From NCBI GenBank assembly GCA_951406725.2, contig OX597815.1:161448001-161512000 (forward strand): a stretch of DNA of 64,000 bases. The letters run 5' to 3'. The stretch's first letter is position 1, and the number at the start of each line of letters is the position of its first letter. The notes below the pieces were generated by a model, which saw nothing but the letters and a program-made list of their open reading frames with translations, had not been told where the DNA came from and searched no databases. Of the stretch, positions 22,941 through 63,016 are shown one piece after another. Position numbers and translations under genes: made by a program. The DNA comes from Octopus vulgaris. Taxonomy: Eukaryota.

Positions 22941-23949
22941 CATGAGGATCTATTTCTTTCCAACAACAAATGAGATATAACTAGATCTATACAGATCAAT
23001 CACCGATGAGAAAAAAAAACTTTCACAAAATAAAAAAATTACTAGCACTTCAAATAATAAAAGTTTTACAAGAATCATCTCATAAACTTTATCACAAAAC
23101 ATATCACACACCATCATAATTATGTTTACATATAATTTTTCCATTATCATTGTTTTGGCTCATTATATCTATAATTTTTTATTAACTTAATTTTATCTAT
23201 AATTTTTATTTCATTTTTATCTGAAATATTTAAGTGCATGTATATCTACATTTATAATTATATATCTAAATATACATATTATATTTTTTCCTGTTATGCA
23301 TGTGGATTTTTTTCATTATAGAACATATACGATTTATTTTATAGTTTACACGTTTCTTTCATCATATATTATCTTTTCATTTTAAACACGTTTCTTACAT
23401 ACATGCTTCTTGTAAAATACATAATGTAATAAACATCAATATAAGTAGTGCATATATCAACGTAAACAGTATATATAACATATGTAGTAAGCATATATAC
23501 ATTATATGAAATAAAACAAAAATAGAAGAAATATAACAGAAGTGAAATATACAATAATACAATGTAATGCAATATAATGTGATATAAAAAGAGGAACACA
23601 TATAATAAACATTACATGTATCTTTTTTATATCACATTGCATTATATGTAATATATTCTTTTACATGTTTCAGTCATTTGACTCTGGCCAAGATGGAGCA
23701 CCACCTATAAGGGTTTTAGTCAAAGAAATCAGCCCCAGGACTTATTCCTTGTAAGCCTAGTACTTATTTTATCAGTCTCTTTTGTCAAACCACTAAGTTA
23801 CAAAGATGTAAGTACACCAACATTGGTGTTGTCAAGCAATGGTGGCAGGGGACAAACATAGACACAAAGACACACATGCATAAATATATATACATATATA
23901 GGGGGAGAGTTCACGAAAAAAACAAAAGACGAAGACAGGTGGTGTACAA

Positions 23950-24022
<73 letters not shown>

Positions 24023-24065
24023 TATATACATATATATATATATACATATATATATACATATATAT

Positions 24066-24107
<42 letters not shown>

Positions 24108-24108
<1 letters not shown>

Positions 24109-24427
24109 AGTGAAAGCTCATAGTTCAATGGTTTGAGCATCGAGTTTACGACCGTGTTCAAATCCTGGACCGGGCTGCATGTTGTGTTCTTGAGCAAGAC
24201 ACTTTATTTCACATTGCTCCAGCTGTAGAAATGAGTTGCGACATCGCTGATGCCAAGCTGTATCAGTCCTTAGCTTTTCCCTTGGATGACGTCGGTGGTG
24301 TGGAGAGGGGAGGCTGGTATGCATGGGTGACTGCTGGTCTTCCATAAACAACCTTGCCTGGACTTGTGCCTGAGACGGTAACTTTCTAGGTGCAATCCCA
24401 TGCTCATTTGTGACTGAAGGGAGTCTC
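24108..24427 (+). mobile_element. tRNA-derived SINE family D copy (duplicate at 26588-26906), nested in a SINE A copy
   Basis: Homologous to 41953-42297. Confidence 0.8.
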
Positions 24428-24632
24428 CATCCATATATATATATACAACGGTCTCCTTTCAGTTTCCATATATCAAATCATTCACAAAGTTTTGGTTGGC
24501 CTGAGGCTGCAGTAGAAGACACTGCCAAAGTGCCACACAGTGGGACTGAACCCAGAACCATTTTATTATATTTCTTTTTATGTTTATTTTTCTACTGTAT
24601 CATATAATGCACATAATATCTATGATATACAC

Positions 24633-25202
24633 CAGTGGTTCTCAACCAAGGACCATATGGCCTCTGGGGGTCCTTGTAAGATTTTGGGGGCTCCTTGTAA
24701 GATTTTTGGGGCCCCTTGCAAGCAAAATAGTAAATCGGGGATCTACAGTAGTAATTTAAGGGTCTATGAAAAAAGTTTTGATTTAACCCTCTAGATTATT
24801 CTGTTGAATGTAATGCTGTTTTACTCAAACTGTTTTGAATCCATCAGTCATTATCTTATAGATTCAAGCTTTTGATGCAGTGATTATTTATTTTTTCGAA
24901 TGTCAATGGAGGTTTGGTGTGAGAGGCTAGATATGGCCAGTTTGAATGTAAAACATGTAGAATATTTGGGCTGGATAAAACCAGTTTAAAATGTTAAAGG
25001 GTTAAATGTATCTGTTGTAAGAAACAGCTAAATTTCTTTCTTTAACATTTTACATAGTTCAACCTACACAAGTTAACATGTGAAAAACAAAATAGGAAGT
25101 ACCTATAAAACTCGTTTATAGACATTGAATGGATATGGAGGTCCACCAGATTAAAGTAGTAATTAAAGGGGTCCATATGTAAAAAATGGTAGAGAATTAC
25201 TG
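24633..25202. mobile_element. hAT (Charlie-type) MITE; copies at 27112-27680 and 55446-55796
   Basis: Termini CAGTGGTTCTCAACC and GGTAGAGAATTACTG; homologous to the inverted copy at 55446-55796 (CAGGGGTTTTCAACC..GTTGAAAACCACTG). Confidence 0.7.
24783..25005. mobile_element. TTAA-flanked piggyBac-like MITE nested in the hAT MITE (copies 27261-27483, 50482-50706, truncated 52552-52771)
   Basis: TTAA-CCCT...AGGG-TTAA ends and a shared internal sequence. Confidence 0.7.
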
Positions 25203-26426
25203 ATGTATACAATCTTATATATGTATGTATTATGTGTAGTATACATCAGGTCATTAAGAATGAAATGTTCGATTTTCTTATGCACCAAGTTTGACAGTTG
25301 TTAACTCTAGTGTTTTATGCTGACAATTCTTTATTTTACAACATTGAAGAGTTACATCATCACTTTTCGAAATGTAATTCATTGTGTCTGATTATATTGT
25401 GAATTTTCTCTGCTAATCGGCTTTTGTAAACCCATATTCACCATATTCACCAGACCTTGCACCAACTGACTATCGTGTTTTCCAGGCATTAGACAACTTT
25501 TTGCAAGGAAAAAAACTTCAAATCTGAAGAAGATGCAAAAACAGCCTTTCATGATTTCATCACCTCTTGCTCTCCAGAATTCTTCACTACCAGTATAAAT
25601 AAATTACTTATAAAATGGCAAAATTGTGTTTTGAAAATTTAGGTGTGTACCTTCATTAACTGCATTGCTTTTTTTTTTTTTTGAGATAAAGTAAAATAGA
25701 ATATTTAAGTGCATGTATATCTACATTTATAATTATATATCTAAATATACATATTATATTTTTTCCTGTTATGCATGTGGATTTTTTTCATTATAGAACA
25801 TATACGATTTATTTTATAGTTTACACGTTTCTTTCATCATATATTATCTTTTCATTTTAAACACGTTTCTTACATACATGCTTCTTGTAAAATACATAAT
25901 GTAATAAACATCAATATAAGTAGTGCATATATCAACGTAAACAGTATATATAACATATGTAGTAAGCATATATACATTATATGAAATAAAACAAAAATAG
26001 AAGAAATATAACAGAAGTGAAATATACAATAATACAATGTAATGCAATATAATGTGATATAAAAAAGAGGAACACATATAATAAACATTACATGTATCTT
26101 TTTTATATCACATTGCATTATATGTAATATATTCTTTTACATGTTTCAGTCATTTGACTCTGGCCAAGATGGAGCACCACCTATAAGGGTTTTAGTCAAA
26201 GAAATCAGCCCCAGGACTTATTCCTTGTAAGCCTAGTACTTATTTTATCAGTCTCTTTTGTCAAACCACTAAGTTACAAAGATGTAAGTACACCAACATT
26301 GGTGTTGTCAAGCAATGGTGGCAGGGGACAAACATAGACACAAAGACACACATGCATAAATATATATACATATATAGGGGGGAGAGTTCACGAAAAAAAC
26401 AAAAGACGAAGACAGGTGGTGTACAA

Positions 26427-26529
<103 letters not shown>

Positions 26530-26544
26530 TATATACATATATAT

Positions 26545-26587
<43 letters not shown>

Positions 26588-27718
26588 AGTGAAAGCTCAT
26601 AGTTCAATGGTTTGAGCATCGAGTTTACGACCGTGTTCAAATCCTGGACCGGGCTGCATGTTGTGTTCTTGAGCAAGACACTTTATTTCACATTGCTCCA
26701 GCTGTAGAAATGAGTTGCGACATCACTGATGCCAAGCTGTATCAGTCCTTAGCTTTTCCCTTGGATGACGTCGGTGGTGTGGAGAGGGGAGGCTGGTATG
26801 CATGGGTGACTGCTGGTCTTCCATAAACAACCTTGCCTGGACTTGTGCCTGAGACGGTAACTTTCTAGGTGCAATCCCATGCTCATTTGTGACTGAAGGG
26901 AGTCTCCATCCATATATATATATACAACGGACTCCTTTCAGTTTCCATATATCAAATCATTCACAAAGTTTTGGTTGGCCTGAGGCTGCAGTAGAAGACA
27001 CTGCCAAAGTGCCACACAGTGGGACTGAACCCAGAACCATTTTATTATATTTCTTTTTATGTTTATTTTTCTACTGTATCATATAATGCACATAATATCT
27101 ATGATATACACCAGTGGTTCTCAACCAAGGACCATATGGCCTCTGGGGGTCCTTGTAAGATTTTGGGGGCTCCTTGTAAGATTTTTGGGGCCCCTTGCAA
27201 GCAAAATAGTAAATCGGGGATCTACAGTAGTAATTTAAGGGTCTATGAAAAAGTTTTGATTTAACCCTCTAGATTATTCTGTTGAATGTAATGCTGTTTT
27301 ACTCAAACTGTTTTGAATCCATCAGTCATTATCTTATAGATTCAAGCTTTTGATGCAGTGATTATTTATTTTTTCGAATGTCAATGGAGGTTTGGTGTGA
27401 GAGGCTAGATATGGCCAGTTTGAATGTAAAACATGTAGAATATTTGGGCTGGATAAAACCAGTTTAAAATGTTAAAGGGTTAAATGTATCTGTTGTAAGA
27501 AACAGCTAAATTTCTTTCTTTAACATTTTACATAGTTCAACCTACACAAGTTAACATGTGAAAAACAAAATAGGAAGTACCTATAAAACTCGTTTATAGA
27601 CATTGAATGGATATGGAGGTCCACCAGATTAAAGTAGTAATTAAAGGGGTCCATATGTAAAAAATGGTAGAGAATTACTGATGTATACAATCTTATATAT
27701 GTATGTATTATGTGTAGT

Positions 27719-28222
27719 ATACATCAGGTCATTAAGAATGAAATGTTTGATTTTCTTATGCACCAAGTTTGACAGTTGTTAACTCTAGTGTTTTATGCTG
27801 ACAATTCTTTATTTTACAACATTGAAGAGTTACATCATCACTTTTCGAAATGTAATTCATTGTGTCTGATTATATTGTGAATTTTCTCTTGCTAATCGGC
27901 TTTTGTAAACCCATATTCACCATATTCACCAGACCTTGCACCAACTGACTATCGTGTTTTCCAGGCATTAGACAACTTTTTGCAAGGAAAAAAACTTCAA
28001 ATCTGAAGAAGATGCAAAAACAGCCTTTCATGATTTCATCACCTCTTGCTCTCTAGAATTCTTCACTACCAGTATAAATAAATTACTTATAAAATGGCAA
28101 AATTGTGTTTTGAAAATTTAGGTGTGTACCTTCATTAACTGCATTGCTTTTTTTTTTTTTGAGATAAAGTAAAATAGACTTTCAGTTCGAAATCAGACAT
28201 TTCATTCTTGATGACCTGATAC
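27719..28222 (+). mobile_element. Internally deleted mariner element (truncated duplicate at 25241-25699)
   Basis: TIRs tcaggtcattaagaatgaaatg and catttcattcttgatgacctga; encodes PYSPDLAPTDYRVFQALDNFLQGK. Confidence 0.85.
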
Positions 28223-31789: not shown

Positions 31790-31837
<48 letters not shown>

Positions 31838-31838
<1 letters not shown>

Positions 31839-32231
31839 TAGCAGTATTGCCCAGTGTTGCTCGGGTTTGTAAGGGAAATAACTATATAAGCATTTTTAGA
31901 GTTATAGCCAAAAAATAGCAAAACAATGCATTAAAAATGGGAAAAAAATTATGGTAAATTTTTTAAAAATCGTTGACTCATCGTAAGCATTTTTAGAGAG
32001 TTACTTCCCTTATATAATAGCGAAAAAATGCATTAAAATGGAAAAAAATTATGGTAAATTTTTTTTTAAATCGTAGACTCATCGTAGACGTGTGCTAATA
32101 CACAGAAGGGCTCGATATGAATCCCGACTATAAGATACCCAGTTTTGGTTAAACTGCACCGTAAAATGTGGGAGTAGTTAGGAATCTAAATCGTAGGAGA
32201 CAGACACACAACTTGACTTTTATATATAAAG

Positions 32232-32233
<2 letters not shown>
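31838..32233 (-). mobile_element. Non-autonomous Helitron-like element
   Basis: Reverse complement starts TCtttatatata and ends with hairpin cccgagcaacactggg plus CTAG; same family as 38500-39421. Confidence 0.7.
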
Positions 32234-32302
<69 letters not shown>

Positions 32303-32513
32303 TACACATATATATATATACGTACACATCTATATATATCATGTTTATATATTCGTTTTGTAAGATTCTTGATGTGAATTTGTGTGTTGAAACAGACATT
32401 GTTGTATTTGGGGATGGTCATGTTCCCAGTTTATTTGCATAAATATATACATGATTTTTACACACACACACACATATGTATATGTATATATATGTATATA
32501 TATATATATATAT

Positions 32514-33317
32514 AATAGAAATATTAAAATTACTAAGTCTCTCTAAAGGAGATTATGGCAGCGTTACTGGATATTAATAGTTATCGCCATACTAATATGG
32601 CAGTCTAAATATAAGACTTAAGCTGTCGCTGATTAGCTCCAAGAGGCCACCGCCTCTAGCTAGCTATATGACACACAAACCTGCATTCATTACAACCTTC
32701 AAACAGGGAAGGTCAGCCGCTTCACCTTGCTAGTCAGACATCTGCAGACATGTTTCAGGGTTGTTGCCCTTTATCAATGCAGCGTAGTCAGAACCAGCAG
32801 GTGTCGCTACTGACCGTCTGTTCAAAGATTTTATTTGCCTAGTTACAGTGGAATACATCCACTTGTTTTCAATAATAGAAATATTAAAATTACTAAGTCT
32901 CTCTAAAGGAGATTACGGCAGCGTTACTGGATATTAATAGTTATCGCCATACTAATATGGCAGTCTAAATATAAGACTAAAGCTGTTGCTGATTAGCTCC
33001 AAGAGGCCACCGCCTCTAGCTAGCTATATGACACATGAACCTGCGTTCATTACAACCTTCGAACAGGGAAGGTCAGCCGCTTCACCTTGCTAGTCAGACA
33101 TCTGCAGACATGTTTCAGGGTTGTTGCAAGTCCGTGTGTCATATAGCTAGCTAGAGGTGGTGGCCTCTTGGAGCTAATCAGCAACAGCTTTAGTCTTATA
33201 TTTAGACTGCCATATTAGTATGGCGATAACTATTAATATCCAGTAACGCTGCCGTAATCTCCTTTAGAGAGACTTAGTAATTTTAATATTTCTATTATTG
33301 AAAACAAGTGGATGTAT
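32514..33317 (-). mobile_element. PLE-like pseudo-LTR array: 360-bp direct repeat (about 1.7 units) plus an inverted arm
   Basis: 32514-32872 repeats at 32873-33127; 33135-33317 is the reverse complement of 32853-33035; contains an HHR. Confidence 0.75.
32742..32782 (-). ncRNA. Minimal type I hammerhead ribozyme, U3:A8 variant
   Basis: Reverse complement CTGCA-TTGATAA-AGGG-caacaa-CCCT-GAAA-CATG-TC-TGCAG; perfect stems I and II, palindromic stem III, GUC site. Confidence 0.75.
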
Positions 33318-33493
33318 AAACACACATATATATATATACATAAGTATATATATTGGGGAGATGTACTTGCATAGCAAGTGATTTGATCTGAGATTGTGTG
33401 CTGGAATGAAAACAATTGCAGCGTGGAAGGTGTTTGTAAGCCCGTTAAGAAACACACAAAAGCCGTTCGATTCACTTCAACATTTAAGTTTAA

Positions 33494-33544
33494 TTTGTCA
33501 AAATATTTTCGTCGCTTTAAGACCGCGACCTGTTCACTGACAAA
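33494..33544 (-). ncRNA. Minimal type I hammerhead ribozyme, G3:C8 variant
   Basis: Reverse complement TTTGTCA-GTGAACA-G-GTCGC-ggtcttaaa-GCGAC-GAAA-ATAT-TT-TGACAAA; 7-bp stem I and 5-bp stem II. Confidence 0.7.
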
Positions 33545-33712
33545 AATCCATGCTGCATAAATATATTTACATATATATATATATATATATACACATATAT
33601 ATACACATATATACATACATATATATATACATGCATTAATATATATATACACATACACATATATATACATACATAAATATATACACGTATATATGTACAT
33701 ATATATATATAA

Positions 33713-38499: not shown

Positions 38500-39418
38500 T
38501 CTATATATATAAAAGTGAAGTTGTGTGAGTGTCTGTCTCCTACGATTTAGATTCCTAACTACTCCCACATTTTGTGGTGCAGTTTAACCAAATTCGGGTA
38601 TATTATAGTCATGATTCATATCGAGCCCGTCTGGGTATTAGCGCGCGTCTACGATGAGTCAACGATTTTAAAAATAATTTACCATAATTTTTTTCCATTT
38701 TAAAGCATATTTTTGGGGGTTCTTCCAAATTTTTCGTGTGTCGATGGCGGCGGAGTTGGCGTCCACGCTCACACCTGCACCTGTGTTGCTTCTCACCCTT
38801 CTTCCCTCCCTCGTGAAGCTGTGGGGAAGGCAGGGTAGGGAAATCAACGTAGTAAAGCTTTGTCAAGGAGACCAGCGTTCTTTTAGAACAACGACTTCAT
38901 GGCTTGAAGTCGCCAAAACAGAAATCGCTAAAAAAGCTGAAACAGATCCACAAAAACGGCAAAAACCGCCACACAGGGCAGGTTTCCTGGGCAAATAATT
39001 TGCACAACCGAATGTTTTAGTTGTTGCACAAATCTTTATATATAAAAGTGAAGTTGTGTGTCTGTCTCCTACGATTTAGATTCCTAACTACTCCCACATT
39101 TTGGGGTGCAGTTTAACCAAAACCGGGTATCTTATAGTCGTGATTCATATCGAGCCCTTCTGGGTATTAGCGCGCGTCTACGATGAGTCTACGATTTAAA
39201 AAAAAAATTACCATCATTTTTTCCATTTTAATGCATTTTTTCGCTATTATATAAGGGAAGTAACTCTCTAAAAATGTCTACGATGTGTCAACGATTTAAA
39301 AAAAAATTACCATCATTTTTTATTCCATTTTTAATGCTATTTTTTGCTATAACTCTCTAAAAATGCTTACATAGTTATTTCCCTTACAAACCCGAGCAAC
39401 GCCGGCTACGCGATACTG

Positions 39419-39421
<3 letters not shown>
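38500..39421 (+). mobile_element. Two adjacent non-autonomous Helitron-like units (38500-39030 and 39032-39421)
   Basis: Each starts TCt(a/t)tatatataaaagtgaagttgtgtg; the second ends cccgagcaacgccgg..ctgcta; homologous to 31838-32233. Confidence 0.7.
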
Positions 39422-39470
<49 letters not shown>

Positions 39471-62733: not shown

Positions 62734-62968
62734 AAGTTTAATTTGTCAAAATATTTTCATCGCTTTAAAGCACGAATTTTTGTCAGTGAACAGGTCGCAG
62801 TCTTAAAGTGACAAAAATATTTTGACAAATTAAACTTAAATGTTGAAGTGAATCAAACGGCTTTTGTGTGTTTCTTAAATGGCTTACAAACACCTTCCAC
62901 ATTGCAATTGTTTTCGTTTCAGCACACGATCTCAGATCAAATCACTTGCTATGCAAGTACATCTCCGT
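62734..62968 (+). mobile_element. Second copy of the G3:C8 HHR repeat family (HHR 62779-62829) with a 5' inverted arm
   Basis: Reverse complement of 33357-33555; core GTGAACA retained, GAAA changed to AAAA; 62734-62768 is inverted relative to 62804-62838. Confidence 0.75.
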
Positions 62969-62970
62969 AA

Positions 62971-63016
<46 letters not shown>

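What the first reader, a model, noticed from the sequence alone, without database searches (positions are those of the whole stretch)
32514..33317. Tandem-plus-inverted 360-bp non-coding unit carrying an intact U3:A8 minimal hammerhead (retrozyme-like)
Seen: a 360-bp unit repeated about 1.7 times and joined to an inverted arm of about 180 bp. A complete HHR lies at 32742-32782 (core UUGAUAA, GUC site), and a second copy breaks off inside the stem II loop at about 33127, at the inversion junction. Established: tandem pLTRs with inverted ends typify PLE insertions, and non-LTR retrozymes are short tandem HHR units that yield monomeric or circular RNAs. Inference: a candidate approximately 360-nt self-processing or circularising RNA unit.
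Basis: partly seen in the sequence, partly recalled or inferred. Interest (0 to 1): 0.75.

Follow-up and report, generated by a model that had tools for sequence, protein, structure and literature searches.

The report
Penelope-pasted hammerhead retrozyme, two fixed ends
This is one of hundreds of scattered genomic copies of a 360-base non-coding repeat carrying a hammerhead motif predicted to cut its own RNA; the copies end at two fixed points and often sit back-to-back in TA repeats, so they were likely pasted by a Penelope-type retrotransposon enzyme, which makes it a new family of a known kind (retrozyme) whose cutting and RNA circles are untested.

Summary
Observation confirmed, with the ribozyme on the minus strand: 1.71 head-to-tail 360-bp units (32512-33127) plus a 192-bp inverted arm, and one complete minimal type I hammerhead (U3:A8, palindromic stem III) at 32742-32782. 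It is one insertion of a dispersed non-coding family (492 core matches genome-wide). In 128 sampled insertions, 178 of 212 arms end at one of two points 59 nt apart. Of 74 two-armed insertions, 52 use one end of each kind. Ends abut (TA)n, and 10 of 16 insertions outside microsatellites have 9-14-bp target duplications: the Penelope-like-element (PLE) footprint. No sampled copy is joined to a PLE ORF. A homologous sister family has C3:G8 with compensatory stem I changes, so the ribozyme fold is conserved. Two intact Neptune-like PLE families are candidate helpers, but neither shares sequence with the unit. Templates span the cut site uncut or religated; a circle is slightly favoured over a linear multimer, with evidence both ways. 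Cleavage, expression and circles are untested. Verdict: new member of the non-LTR retrozymes. The scan's earlier AI notes report this architecture on other DNA (19 findings, at least 8 genomes).

The parts
32512..32871 (-). Complete 360-nt unit (unit position 1 = 32871); its 3' end at 32512 is the 'long' fixed end of the family
32872..33127 (-). 5'-truncated upstream unit (unit 105-360), head-to-tail, 97% identical
33126..33317 (+). Inverted arm (unit 188-360 plus 1-19); 2-nt overlap at the inversion junction; outer end at unit 19 is atypical (family norm 301)
32742..32782 (-). Complete minimal type I hammerhead: U3:A8 core, 4-bp stem II, palindromic stem III, predicted cut 32747/32746
33102..33127 (-). 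Truncated second hammerhead: substrate side only (predicted cut 33107/33106), no catalytic core
32747..33106 (-). Cut-to-cut 360-nt monomer, one of 28 such places found in the genome
32691..32831 (-). Predicted long rod hairpin (unit 41-181) with the hammerhead at its tip; copies stop preferentially in its 3' arm
32512..32570 (-). 59-nt 'tail' between the short (unit 301 = 32571) and long (unit 360 = 32512) fixed 3' ends
32474..32514 (.). (TA)n target microsatellite, left flank
33318..33354 (.). AT/CA microsatellite, right flank; target duplication not resolvable here

Best explanation
The locus is one insertion of a dispersed, non-coding 360-nt repeat family with a hammerhead motif predicted to self-cleave, and it was likely pasted by the reverse transcriptase-endonuclease of a Penelope-like element copying a small, probably circular RNA. 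Steps: (1) Inferred: rare copies longer than one unit are transcribed. (2) Predicted: two hammerheads pair through the palindromic stem III and cut at GUC, and a host ligase closes the 360-nt monomer. (3) Shown as a genomic footprint, enzyme inferred: a GIY-YIG nuclease makes a staggered cut of about 9-14 nt in TA-rich DNA. (4) Shown as a footprint: each DNA end primes reverse transcription at an internal RNA site, one at unit 360 and the other at unit 301. (5) Shown: copying runs through the ribozyme junction, often past one unit, and stops at variable points; the two cDNAs are joined at 1-7-nt overlaps, giving back-to-back arms. Confidence is about 0.9 for a PLE-mobilised non-autonomous retrozyme family and about 0.55 for the whole chain including the circle.
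For: Family: 2897 first-look candidates (not a copy number), 177 exact and 492 core hammerhead matches with 0 for the reversed controls; arms average 2.4% from the majority. Fixed ends: 103 long, 75 short and 34 other among 212 arms. Of 74 two-armed insertions, 52 are long+short, 2 long+long, 1 short+short and 19 have an atypical end; 152 of 178 fixed ends run into TA repeats. Target duplications of 9-14 bp occur in 10 of 16 insertions with no microsatellite flank, against 3 of 240 mismatched pairs; 5 of the 10 enclose a simple two-armed insertion. Two internal RT start sites define the PLE tail in vitro (PMC11167929). The genome holds intact Neptune-like PLEs with two 3' ends and TA targets; the 781-aa family carries the same UUGAUAA...GAAACAUGU core, and one copy (L096) shows long+short inversion. 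Ribozyme conservation: the 357-nt sister family (50% identity, score 149.5 vs shuffles at most 87) has C3:G8 in 8 of 8 rows against U3:A8 in 15 of 15, and 4 of 5 stem I pairs change on both sides. For a circle: no excess of stops at the cut site (8 vs 5.9 expected, p 0.24); 80 of 212 arms exceed one unit and the longest is 964 nt; only 28 cut-to-cut units were found, at most two in a row; tandem units share rare variants (19 of 360 vs 83 of 15685 between insertions); the circular fold has z -5.7.
Against: No cleavage, transcript or circle was shown. PLE minimal hammerheads cleave poorly in vitro (PMC4209133), 8 of 9 Xenopus dimers did not cleave, and for Poseidon uncut RNA was the dominant template. 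Stops cluster in the 3' arm of the rod in the second lap as in the first (1.73 and 1.39 per 100 nt vs 0.27-0.82 at unit 182-360), which a circle still hybridised to its first cDNA should not show. At sites covered three times in one insertion, all three copies share the variant 19 times, but only two share it 17 times (rare variants: 3 vs 8), so one monomeric circle does not explain every insertion. At this locus unit site 245 is shared by the arm and the upstream unit only. Neither PLE family's terminal repeat resembles the unit, and their tails are about 31-35 nt, not 59. The covariation is in effect one contrast (A/B vs C). Loci were selected by similarity, so length statistics are biased.
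Confidence: 0.55

Rival explanations
1. Same family and same PLE helper, but the template is a linear, uncut multimeric read-through transcript of a few dimer or trimer source copies (or a mix of dimers); the hammerhead is slow or does another job, and no circle is needed.
For: Second-lap stops in the rod suggest a folded second unit. The arm matches only one tandem unit at 12 of 36 shared sites. Only 4 of 212 arms exceed two units. Uncut multi-copy RNA is the in vitro template of Poseidon. Seven of 128 insertions hold two full hammerheads on one arm and could be sources.
Against: 5' truncation shortens each generation, and no array longer than about three units was found. Rare variants are shared by both tandem units in 13 of 61 insertions (12 of 58 without CpG sites), which needs a monomer-to-multimer step or gene conversion. 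The ribozyme fold is kept across 50% divergence.
Confidence: 0.33
2. The unit is only the pseudo-LTR of an autonomous PLE not yet seen, and these are its truncated and inverted ends.
For: The architecture is that of PLE ends (PMC8557442). Only 150 of 6136 and 150 of 17534 PLE-protein candidates were scored, so other families are unexamined.
Against: In 153 insertions the sequence 5' of unit position 1 is unit position 360, an inverted arm or flank. Among 68 free 5' flanks only one pair shares junction-near sequence, and the 4 loci with PLE protein matches are unrelated neighbours or targets. 92 of 212 arms cross the 360|1 junction directly.
Confidence: 0.07
3. An RNA-to-RNA replicating viroid-like agent whose circles are occasionally captured into the genome by PLE enzymes.
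For: Viroid size, strong self-pairing (z -5.7 to -8.6), ribozyme, many haplotypes.
Against: Ribozyme in one polarity only; the fold is branched outside the rod; two fixed PLE-type start sites imply adaptation to retrotransposition; the DNA copies alone explain the family.
Confidence: 0.03
4. Local tandem and inverted duplication of ordinary DNA with a chance hammerhead-like motif.
For: None beyond the silence of Rfam.
Against: Hundreds of dispersed copies, fixed ends, target duplications, covariation; 0 descriptor hits in 100 shuffles.
Confidence: 0.01

Closest known systems
Metazoan non-LTR retrozymes (Cervera and de la Pena 2020, PMC7229834; Li, Clavereau and Pollet 2026, bioRxiv 10.64898/2026.07.22.740005)
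   Same: Non-coding unit of 150-450 nt, one type I hammerhead per unit, GC under 50%, head-to-tail copies, target duplications longer than 4 bp, predicted self-paired circle, co-occurring PLEs. Mussel units are 350-390 bp.
   Different: Minimal PLE-type U3:A8 ribozyme rather than the canonical or near-canonical motifs of the tested coral, mussel and axolotl retrozymes; no long arrays (at most about 2.7 units); two fixed 3' ends and back-to-back arms, which I did not see in the sections read; no sequence-related PLE terminal repeat found (Li et al. found one for 24 of 57 Xenopus families); circles not tested.
Neptune/Naiad/Poseidon Penelope-like element insertions (Craig et al. 2021, PMC8557442; Frangieh et al. 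2024, PMC11167929)
   Same: Partial tandem plus inverted 5'-truncated copy, tail at one end only, (TA)n bias, two internal RT start sites.
   Different: No ORF; whole element 360 nt; tail 59 nt (46 in the sister family) instead of 30-40.
Minimal PLE hammerheads, including the U3-A8 variant of Schistosoma Cercyon (Cervera and de la Pena 2014, PMC4209133)
   Same: U3-A8 core pair, short palindromic stem III that predicts dimer cleavage, 4-5-bp stem I.
   Different: Stem II is 4 bp (7-8 there); stem I continues into a predicted long rod; the motif sits in a non-autonomous unit; a homologous sister family carries C3-G8.
Non-autonomous Chlamys elements such as MRC1 (PMC8557442, passage)
   Same: Non-coding PLE parasites with pseudo-LTRs and head-to-tail copies.
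   Different: Those generally resemble their autonomous partner at the 3' end, and most Chlamys lack a canonical hammerhead.

Membership tests
Non-LTR retrozyme | Non-coding unit of about 150-450 nt | tested here: met
   360 nt; longest stop-to-stop frame 60 aa
Non-LTR retrozyme | One type I hammerhead per unit | tested here: met
   minimal U3:A8 variant; no Rfam hammerhead hit
Non-LTR retrozyme | Head-to-tail copies, with some loci holding two complete ribozymes | tested here: met
   family: 7 of 128 insertions, 28 cut-to-cut units; this locus has one complete ribozyme and one half, so it fails Li et al.'s 'active' criterion
Non-LTR retrozyme | Target duplications longer than 4 bp | tested here: met
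   9-14 bp in 10 of 16 scorable insertions; not resolvable at this locus
Non-LTR retrozyme | No primer-binding site or polypurine tract | not tested
   no dedicated search; no tRNA gene in the window
Non-LTR retrozyme | Self-cleavage of the RNA | not testable with these tools
   only fold energies (swapped dimer -25.4 kcal/mol vs -10.1 per monomer without stem III)
Non-LTR retrozyme | Accumulation as linear and circular monomer RNA | tested here: inconclusive
   only contigs of runs of unrecorded type were offered
PLE-type insertion | Two 3' ends (tail at one end only) | tested here: met
   178 of 212 arms; 52 of 74 inverted pairs long+short
PLE-type insertion | Partial tandem plus inverted 5'-truncated copy | tested here: met
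   74 of 128 insertions two-armed
PLE-type insertion | (TA)n or AT-rich target bias | tested here: met
   152 of 178 fixed ends
Autonomous PLE | ORF with RT and GIY-YIG joined to the terminal repeat | tested here: not met
   none in 153 insertions
Non-autonomous derivative of a named PLE family | Sequence similarity to the partner's terminal repeat | tested here: not met
   two Neptune-like families tested by blastn and nhmmer; other PLE families not examined

The most novel reading that the evidence does not exclude
A genome-encoded viroid-like RNA circle, conserved in fold across two 50%-diverged sister families, is copied by a Penelope enzyme with which it shares no sequence, from both ends of one staggered cut, at two fixed internal start sites. 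The telomerase-like RT keeps only a short RNA:DNA hybrid, so the circle refolds and is read a second and third time. That would explain more-than-unit copies without master arrays and the repeated stop at the same hairpin.
Probability: 0.25. Interest if true: 0.72.

Novelty: new member of a known kind. Interest (0 to 1): 0.45.

Why it matters
How animal retrozymes move is proposed but not shown: the papers read infer PLE help from co-occurrence and terminal-repeat similarity. This family carries the PLE insertion footprint itself (two start sites, twin arms within one target duplication), in a genome with intact candidate helper ORFs. That gives a 360-nt substrate with exact predicted start points for an in vitro test of trans-mobilisation and of circle versus linear template. 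The natural C3:G8/U3:A8 pair of sister families is a ready control for ribozyme activity. The kind is known, and the scan has already noted similar families, so this family's value is confirmatory and mechanistic.

Tried and rejected
RNA evidence: no RNA holder listed on record. Contigs of four runs guessed to be RNA and of three runs of unknown type plus one of those cover the unit in pieces, but cannot show strand, ends, level or circles; used neither for nor against. Rfam: nothing at gathering score; mir-3190 at E 1.8e-5 is the inverted repeat, far under its cut-off. ARAGORN: no tRNA. The sigma-70 scan is irrelevant to an animal. Helper search: the terminal repeats of the 781-aa and 775-aa PLE families are not similar to the unit; L112, L183, L008 and L220 hold PLE fragments as neighbours or targets only. 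A pattern with one N too many found 0; corrected (8 matches). The idea of a compensatory change at the base of stem II was dropped, since most subfamily B copies keep A-U. Linear self-cleaved monomer as main template is rejected: no excess of stops at the cut site. Long satellite array: not found. One search gave 6 forward and 22 reverse matches; this asymmetry is unexplained and the count may be incomplete. RNAalifold on the three-family alignment recovered stem I and local hairpins but not the long rod, because the alignment is out of register there; the rod rests on single-sequence folds of A, B and C. Of 16 A/B majority differences, 6 break, 2 keep and 8 lie outside predicted pairs, so A versus B gives no covariation support. 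Lunse et al. 2017 was not held.

Full report
Observation. The stretch holds a direct repeat with spacing 360 (32512-32767 and 32872-33127, 97%) and an inverted arm 33126-33317 that is 98% complementary to 32853-33044. Read on the minus strand it is a unit truncated at position 105, a full unit ending at 32512, and upstream of them an opposite-facing arm of unit positions 188-360 and 1-19. Both outer ends run into TA-rich microsatellite. The hammerhead at 32742-32782 is on the minus strand: 5-bp stem I, core UUGAUAA, 4-bp stem II, GAAA, palindromic stem III, GUC, predicted cut 32747/32746. My descriptor finds this one motif in the window and none in 100 block-shuffled windows. Rfam does not detect it. 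The upstream copy keeps only the substrate side. No coding frame exceeds 60 residues.

The family. G000 has 2.8 Gb in 227 contigs. An octopus-like animal is my inference from size and composition, echoed by the scan's AI notes; it is not established. The unit gives 2897 first-look candidates, of which 40 were scored. The exact 34-nt ribozyme occurs 177 times, a loop variant 268 times (subfamily B), and the core with free stem II 492 times; reversed controls gave 0. I analysed 145 loci: 30 chosen by full-length match, 30 by the 3' 100 nt, and 85 from the exact-ribozyme list. With loci already held these cover 99 of the first 100 listed matches of 177. They reduce to 128 distinct insertions with 212 arms. 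The selection favours long, ribozyme-bearing arms.

Insertion footprint. 103 arms end at unit 351-8 (77 exactly at 360), 75 at 295-302 (60 at 301), and 34 elsewhere; 5' ends are scattered. 74 insertions are back-to-back pairs: 52 long+short, 2 long+long, 1 short+short, 19 with an atypical end. 53 are single-armed and 1 is complex. 152 of 178 fixed ends abut TA repeats. Inversion junctions mostly overlap by 1-7 nt (55 of 75). Of 16 insertions without microsatellite flanks, 10 have 9-14-bp target duplications (null 3 of 240), five of them around a simple two-armed insertion. Both ends of one staggered cut therefore primed cDNA (inference). This locus fits, except that its arm ends at unit 19. 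Craig et al. describe partial tandems, an inverted 5'-truncated copy, a 30-40-bp tail at one end and (TA)n bias for PLEs (PMC8557442; passages). Frangieh et al. show that the tail lies between two internal RT start sites (PMC11167929; main text parts 1-2 of 4).

Non-autonomous. In 153 A and B insertions no arm continues into a PLE ORF. Only one pair of 68 free 5' flanks shares junction-near sequence, and four loci with PLE matches are neighbours or targets. 92 of 212 arms cross directly from unit 360 to 1. Two young autonomous families exist. One has a 781-aa ORF (RVT_1 and GIY-YIG; cysteine linker; hence Neptune-like by the criteria) and a U3:A8 hammerhead with the same core and palindrome, two ends about 35 nt apart, and TA targets. 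The other has a 775-aa ORF, 47% identical, with ends about 31 nt apart. Neither terminal repeat resembles the unit. Naiad elements, which also target (TA)n and occur in octopods, were not examined; earlier notes place them in this genome. The helper is unidentified.

Is the ribozyme real? A profile of the unit found a distant relative that proved to be a second family, C: 357 nt, about 50% identical over the whole unit, with the same two-end, tandem and inverted layout. In an alignment of 7 A, 8 B and 8 C copies, chosen by me from 30, 21 and 18 candidates, the 3:8 pair is U-A in 15 and C-G in 8. Four of five stem I pairs change on both sides, both stem III pairs are invariant, and 92.8% of cells pair, against 34-51% when slid. 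This is one evolutionary contrast, and the shuffle control for the number of doubly changed pairs was not exceeded (168 of 500). A versus B gives no support, and within A the ribozyme is no better conserved than the rest (2.7% vs 1.2-2.4%), as expected for dead insertions. U3-A8 is known from Schistosoma PLEs, and such motifs cut weakly and only as dimers (PMC4209133; parts 1-2 of 4). The swapped dimer scores -25.4 kcal/mol. By that model the complete ribozyme here could cut the upstream site in cis, but its own site would need a partner RNA (inference).

Template: circle or linear? Arms do not stop preferentially at the cut site (8 vs 5.9 expected), so the template is uncut or religated there. 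For a circle: 80 arms exceed one unit, 4 exceed two, and the longest is 964 nt, while only 28 cut-to-cut units were found genome-wide, at most two in a row (strand counts 6 and 22, possibly incomplete). Tandem units share rare variants ten times more often than unrelated insertions. The unit folds as a circle with z -5.7 against 60 shuffles. Against a simple circle: stops cluster at unit 126-181, the 3' arm of the predicted rod, in both laps. At triple-covered sites all three copies agree 19 times but only two agree 17 times, which fits mixed or multimeric templates, or later gene conversion. I put the circle at about 0.55 and the linear multimer at about 0.33. The public runs gave no usable RNA evidence.

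Comparison and novelty. It works like, and on every feature I could test belongs to, the non-LTR retrozymes (PMC7229834; parts 2-4 of 6; bioRxiv 10.64898/2026.07.22.740005; parts 1-3 of 5 and a term search). The RNA-level features are untested. It is not an autonomous PLE. A review was seen as passages (PMC6765202); Lunse et al. 2017 only as a title (not held). Seven searches showed no paper on this family or on the two-end footprint in retrozymes; supplements were not seen. My reading was recorded before the look-up of earlier notes, which found no look-alike of this sequence but 19 findings in at least 8 genomes holding my search words; of the 8 shown, 6 describe hammerhead repeats of this architecture, two of them in this genome. 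These are unchecked AI notes and add no support. Verdict: a real, young, PLE-mobilised retrozyme family; new member of a known kind; interest 0.45.

Noticed in passing
L270:2789-2955 (-); L271-L290: Sister family C: 357-nt unit, about 50% identical, canonical C3:G8 hammerhead, two 3' ends about 46 nt apart, tandem and inverted copies beside TA repeats; 2085 first-look candidates. May or may not be the 355-bp family of e1-8667047.
   Followed up: partly
L204-L233: Older subfamily B (loop II differs; 268 matches; about 90% identical to A; 7% from its own majority) with the same ends.
   Followed up: partly
L091-L107, e.g. L094:768-4471: Very young Neptune-like PLE: 781-aa RT/GIY-YIG ORF overlapped by an upstream ORF of up to 479 aa with no clear Pfam match; U3:A8 minimal hammerhead with an A/U-rich stem I.
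   Followed up: partly
L234-L269: Second young Neptune-like family: 775-aa ORF, 4271-bp head-to-tail unit up to trimers, two ends about 31 nt apart; a possible U4C minimal hammerhead seen by eye only (my pattern did not report it).
   Followed up: partly
window 23225-28178: 2.48-kb tandem duplication at 99.5% identity; recent duplication or assembly artefact.
   Followed up: no
L112:797-1955: Retrozyme copy inside an old PLE fragment, with a 238-bp inverted duplication spanning element and flank.
   Followed up: partly
window 31808-32237 and 39028-39451; 33328-33554 and 62769-62991: Other interspersed repeats bounded by TA microsatellites flank the locus; not classified.
   Followed up: no
G000:C15:36768436-36769145 (-) and C2:172255221-172255930 (-): The only two places found with two consecutive cut-to-cut units: candidate source loci.
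   Followed up: no
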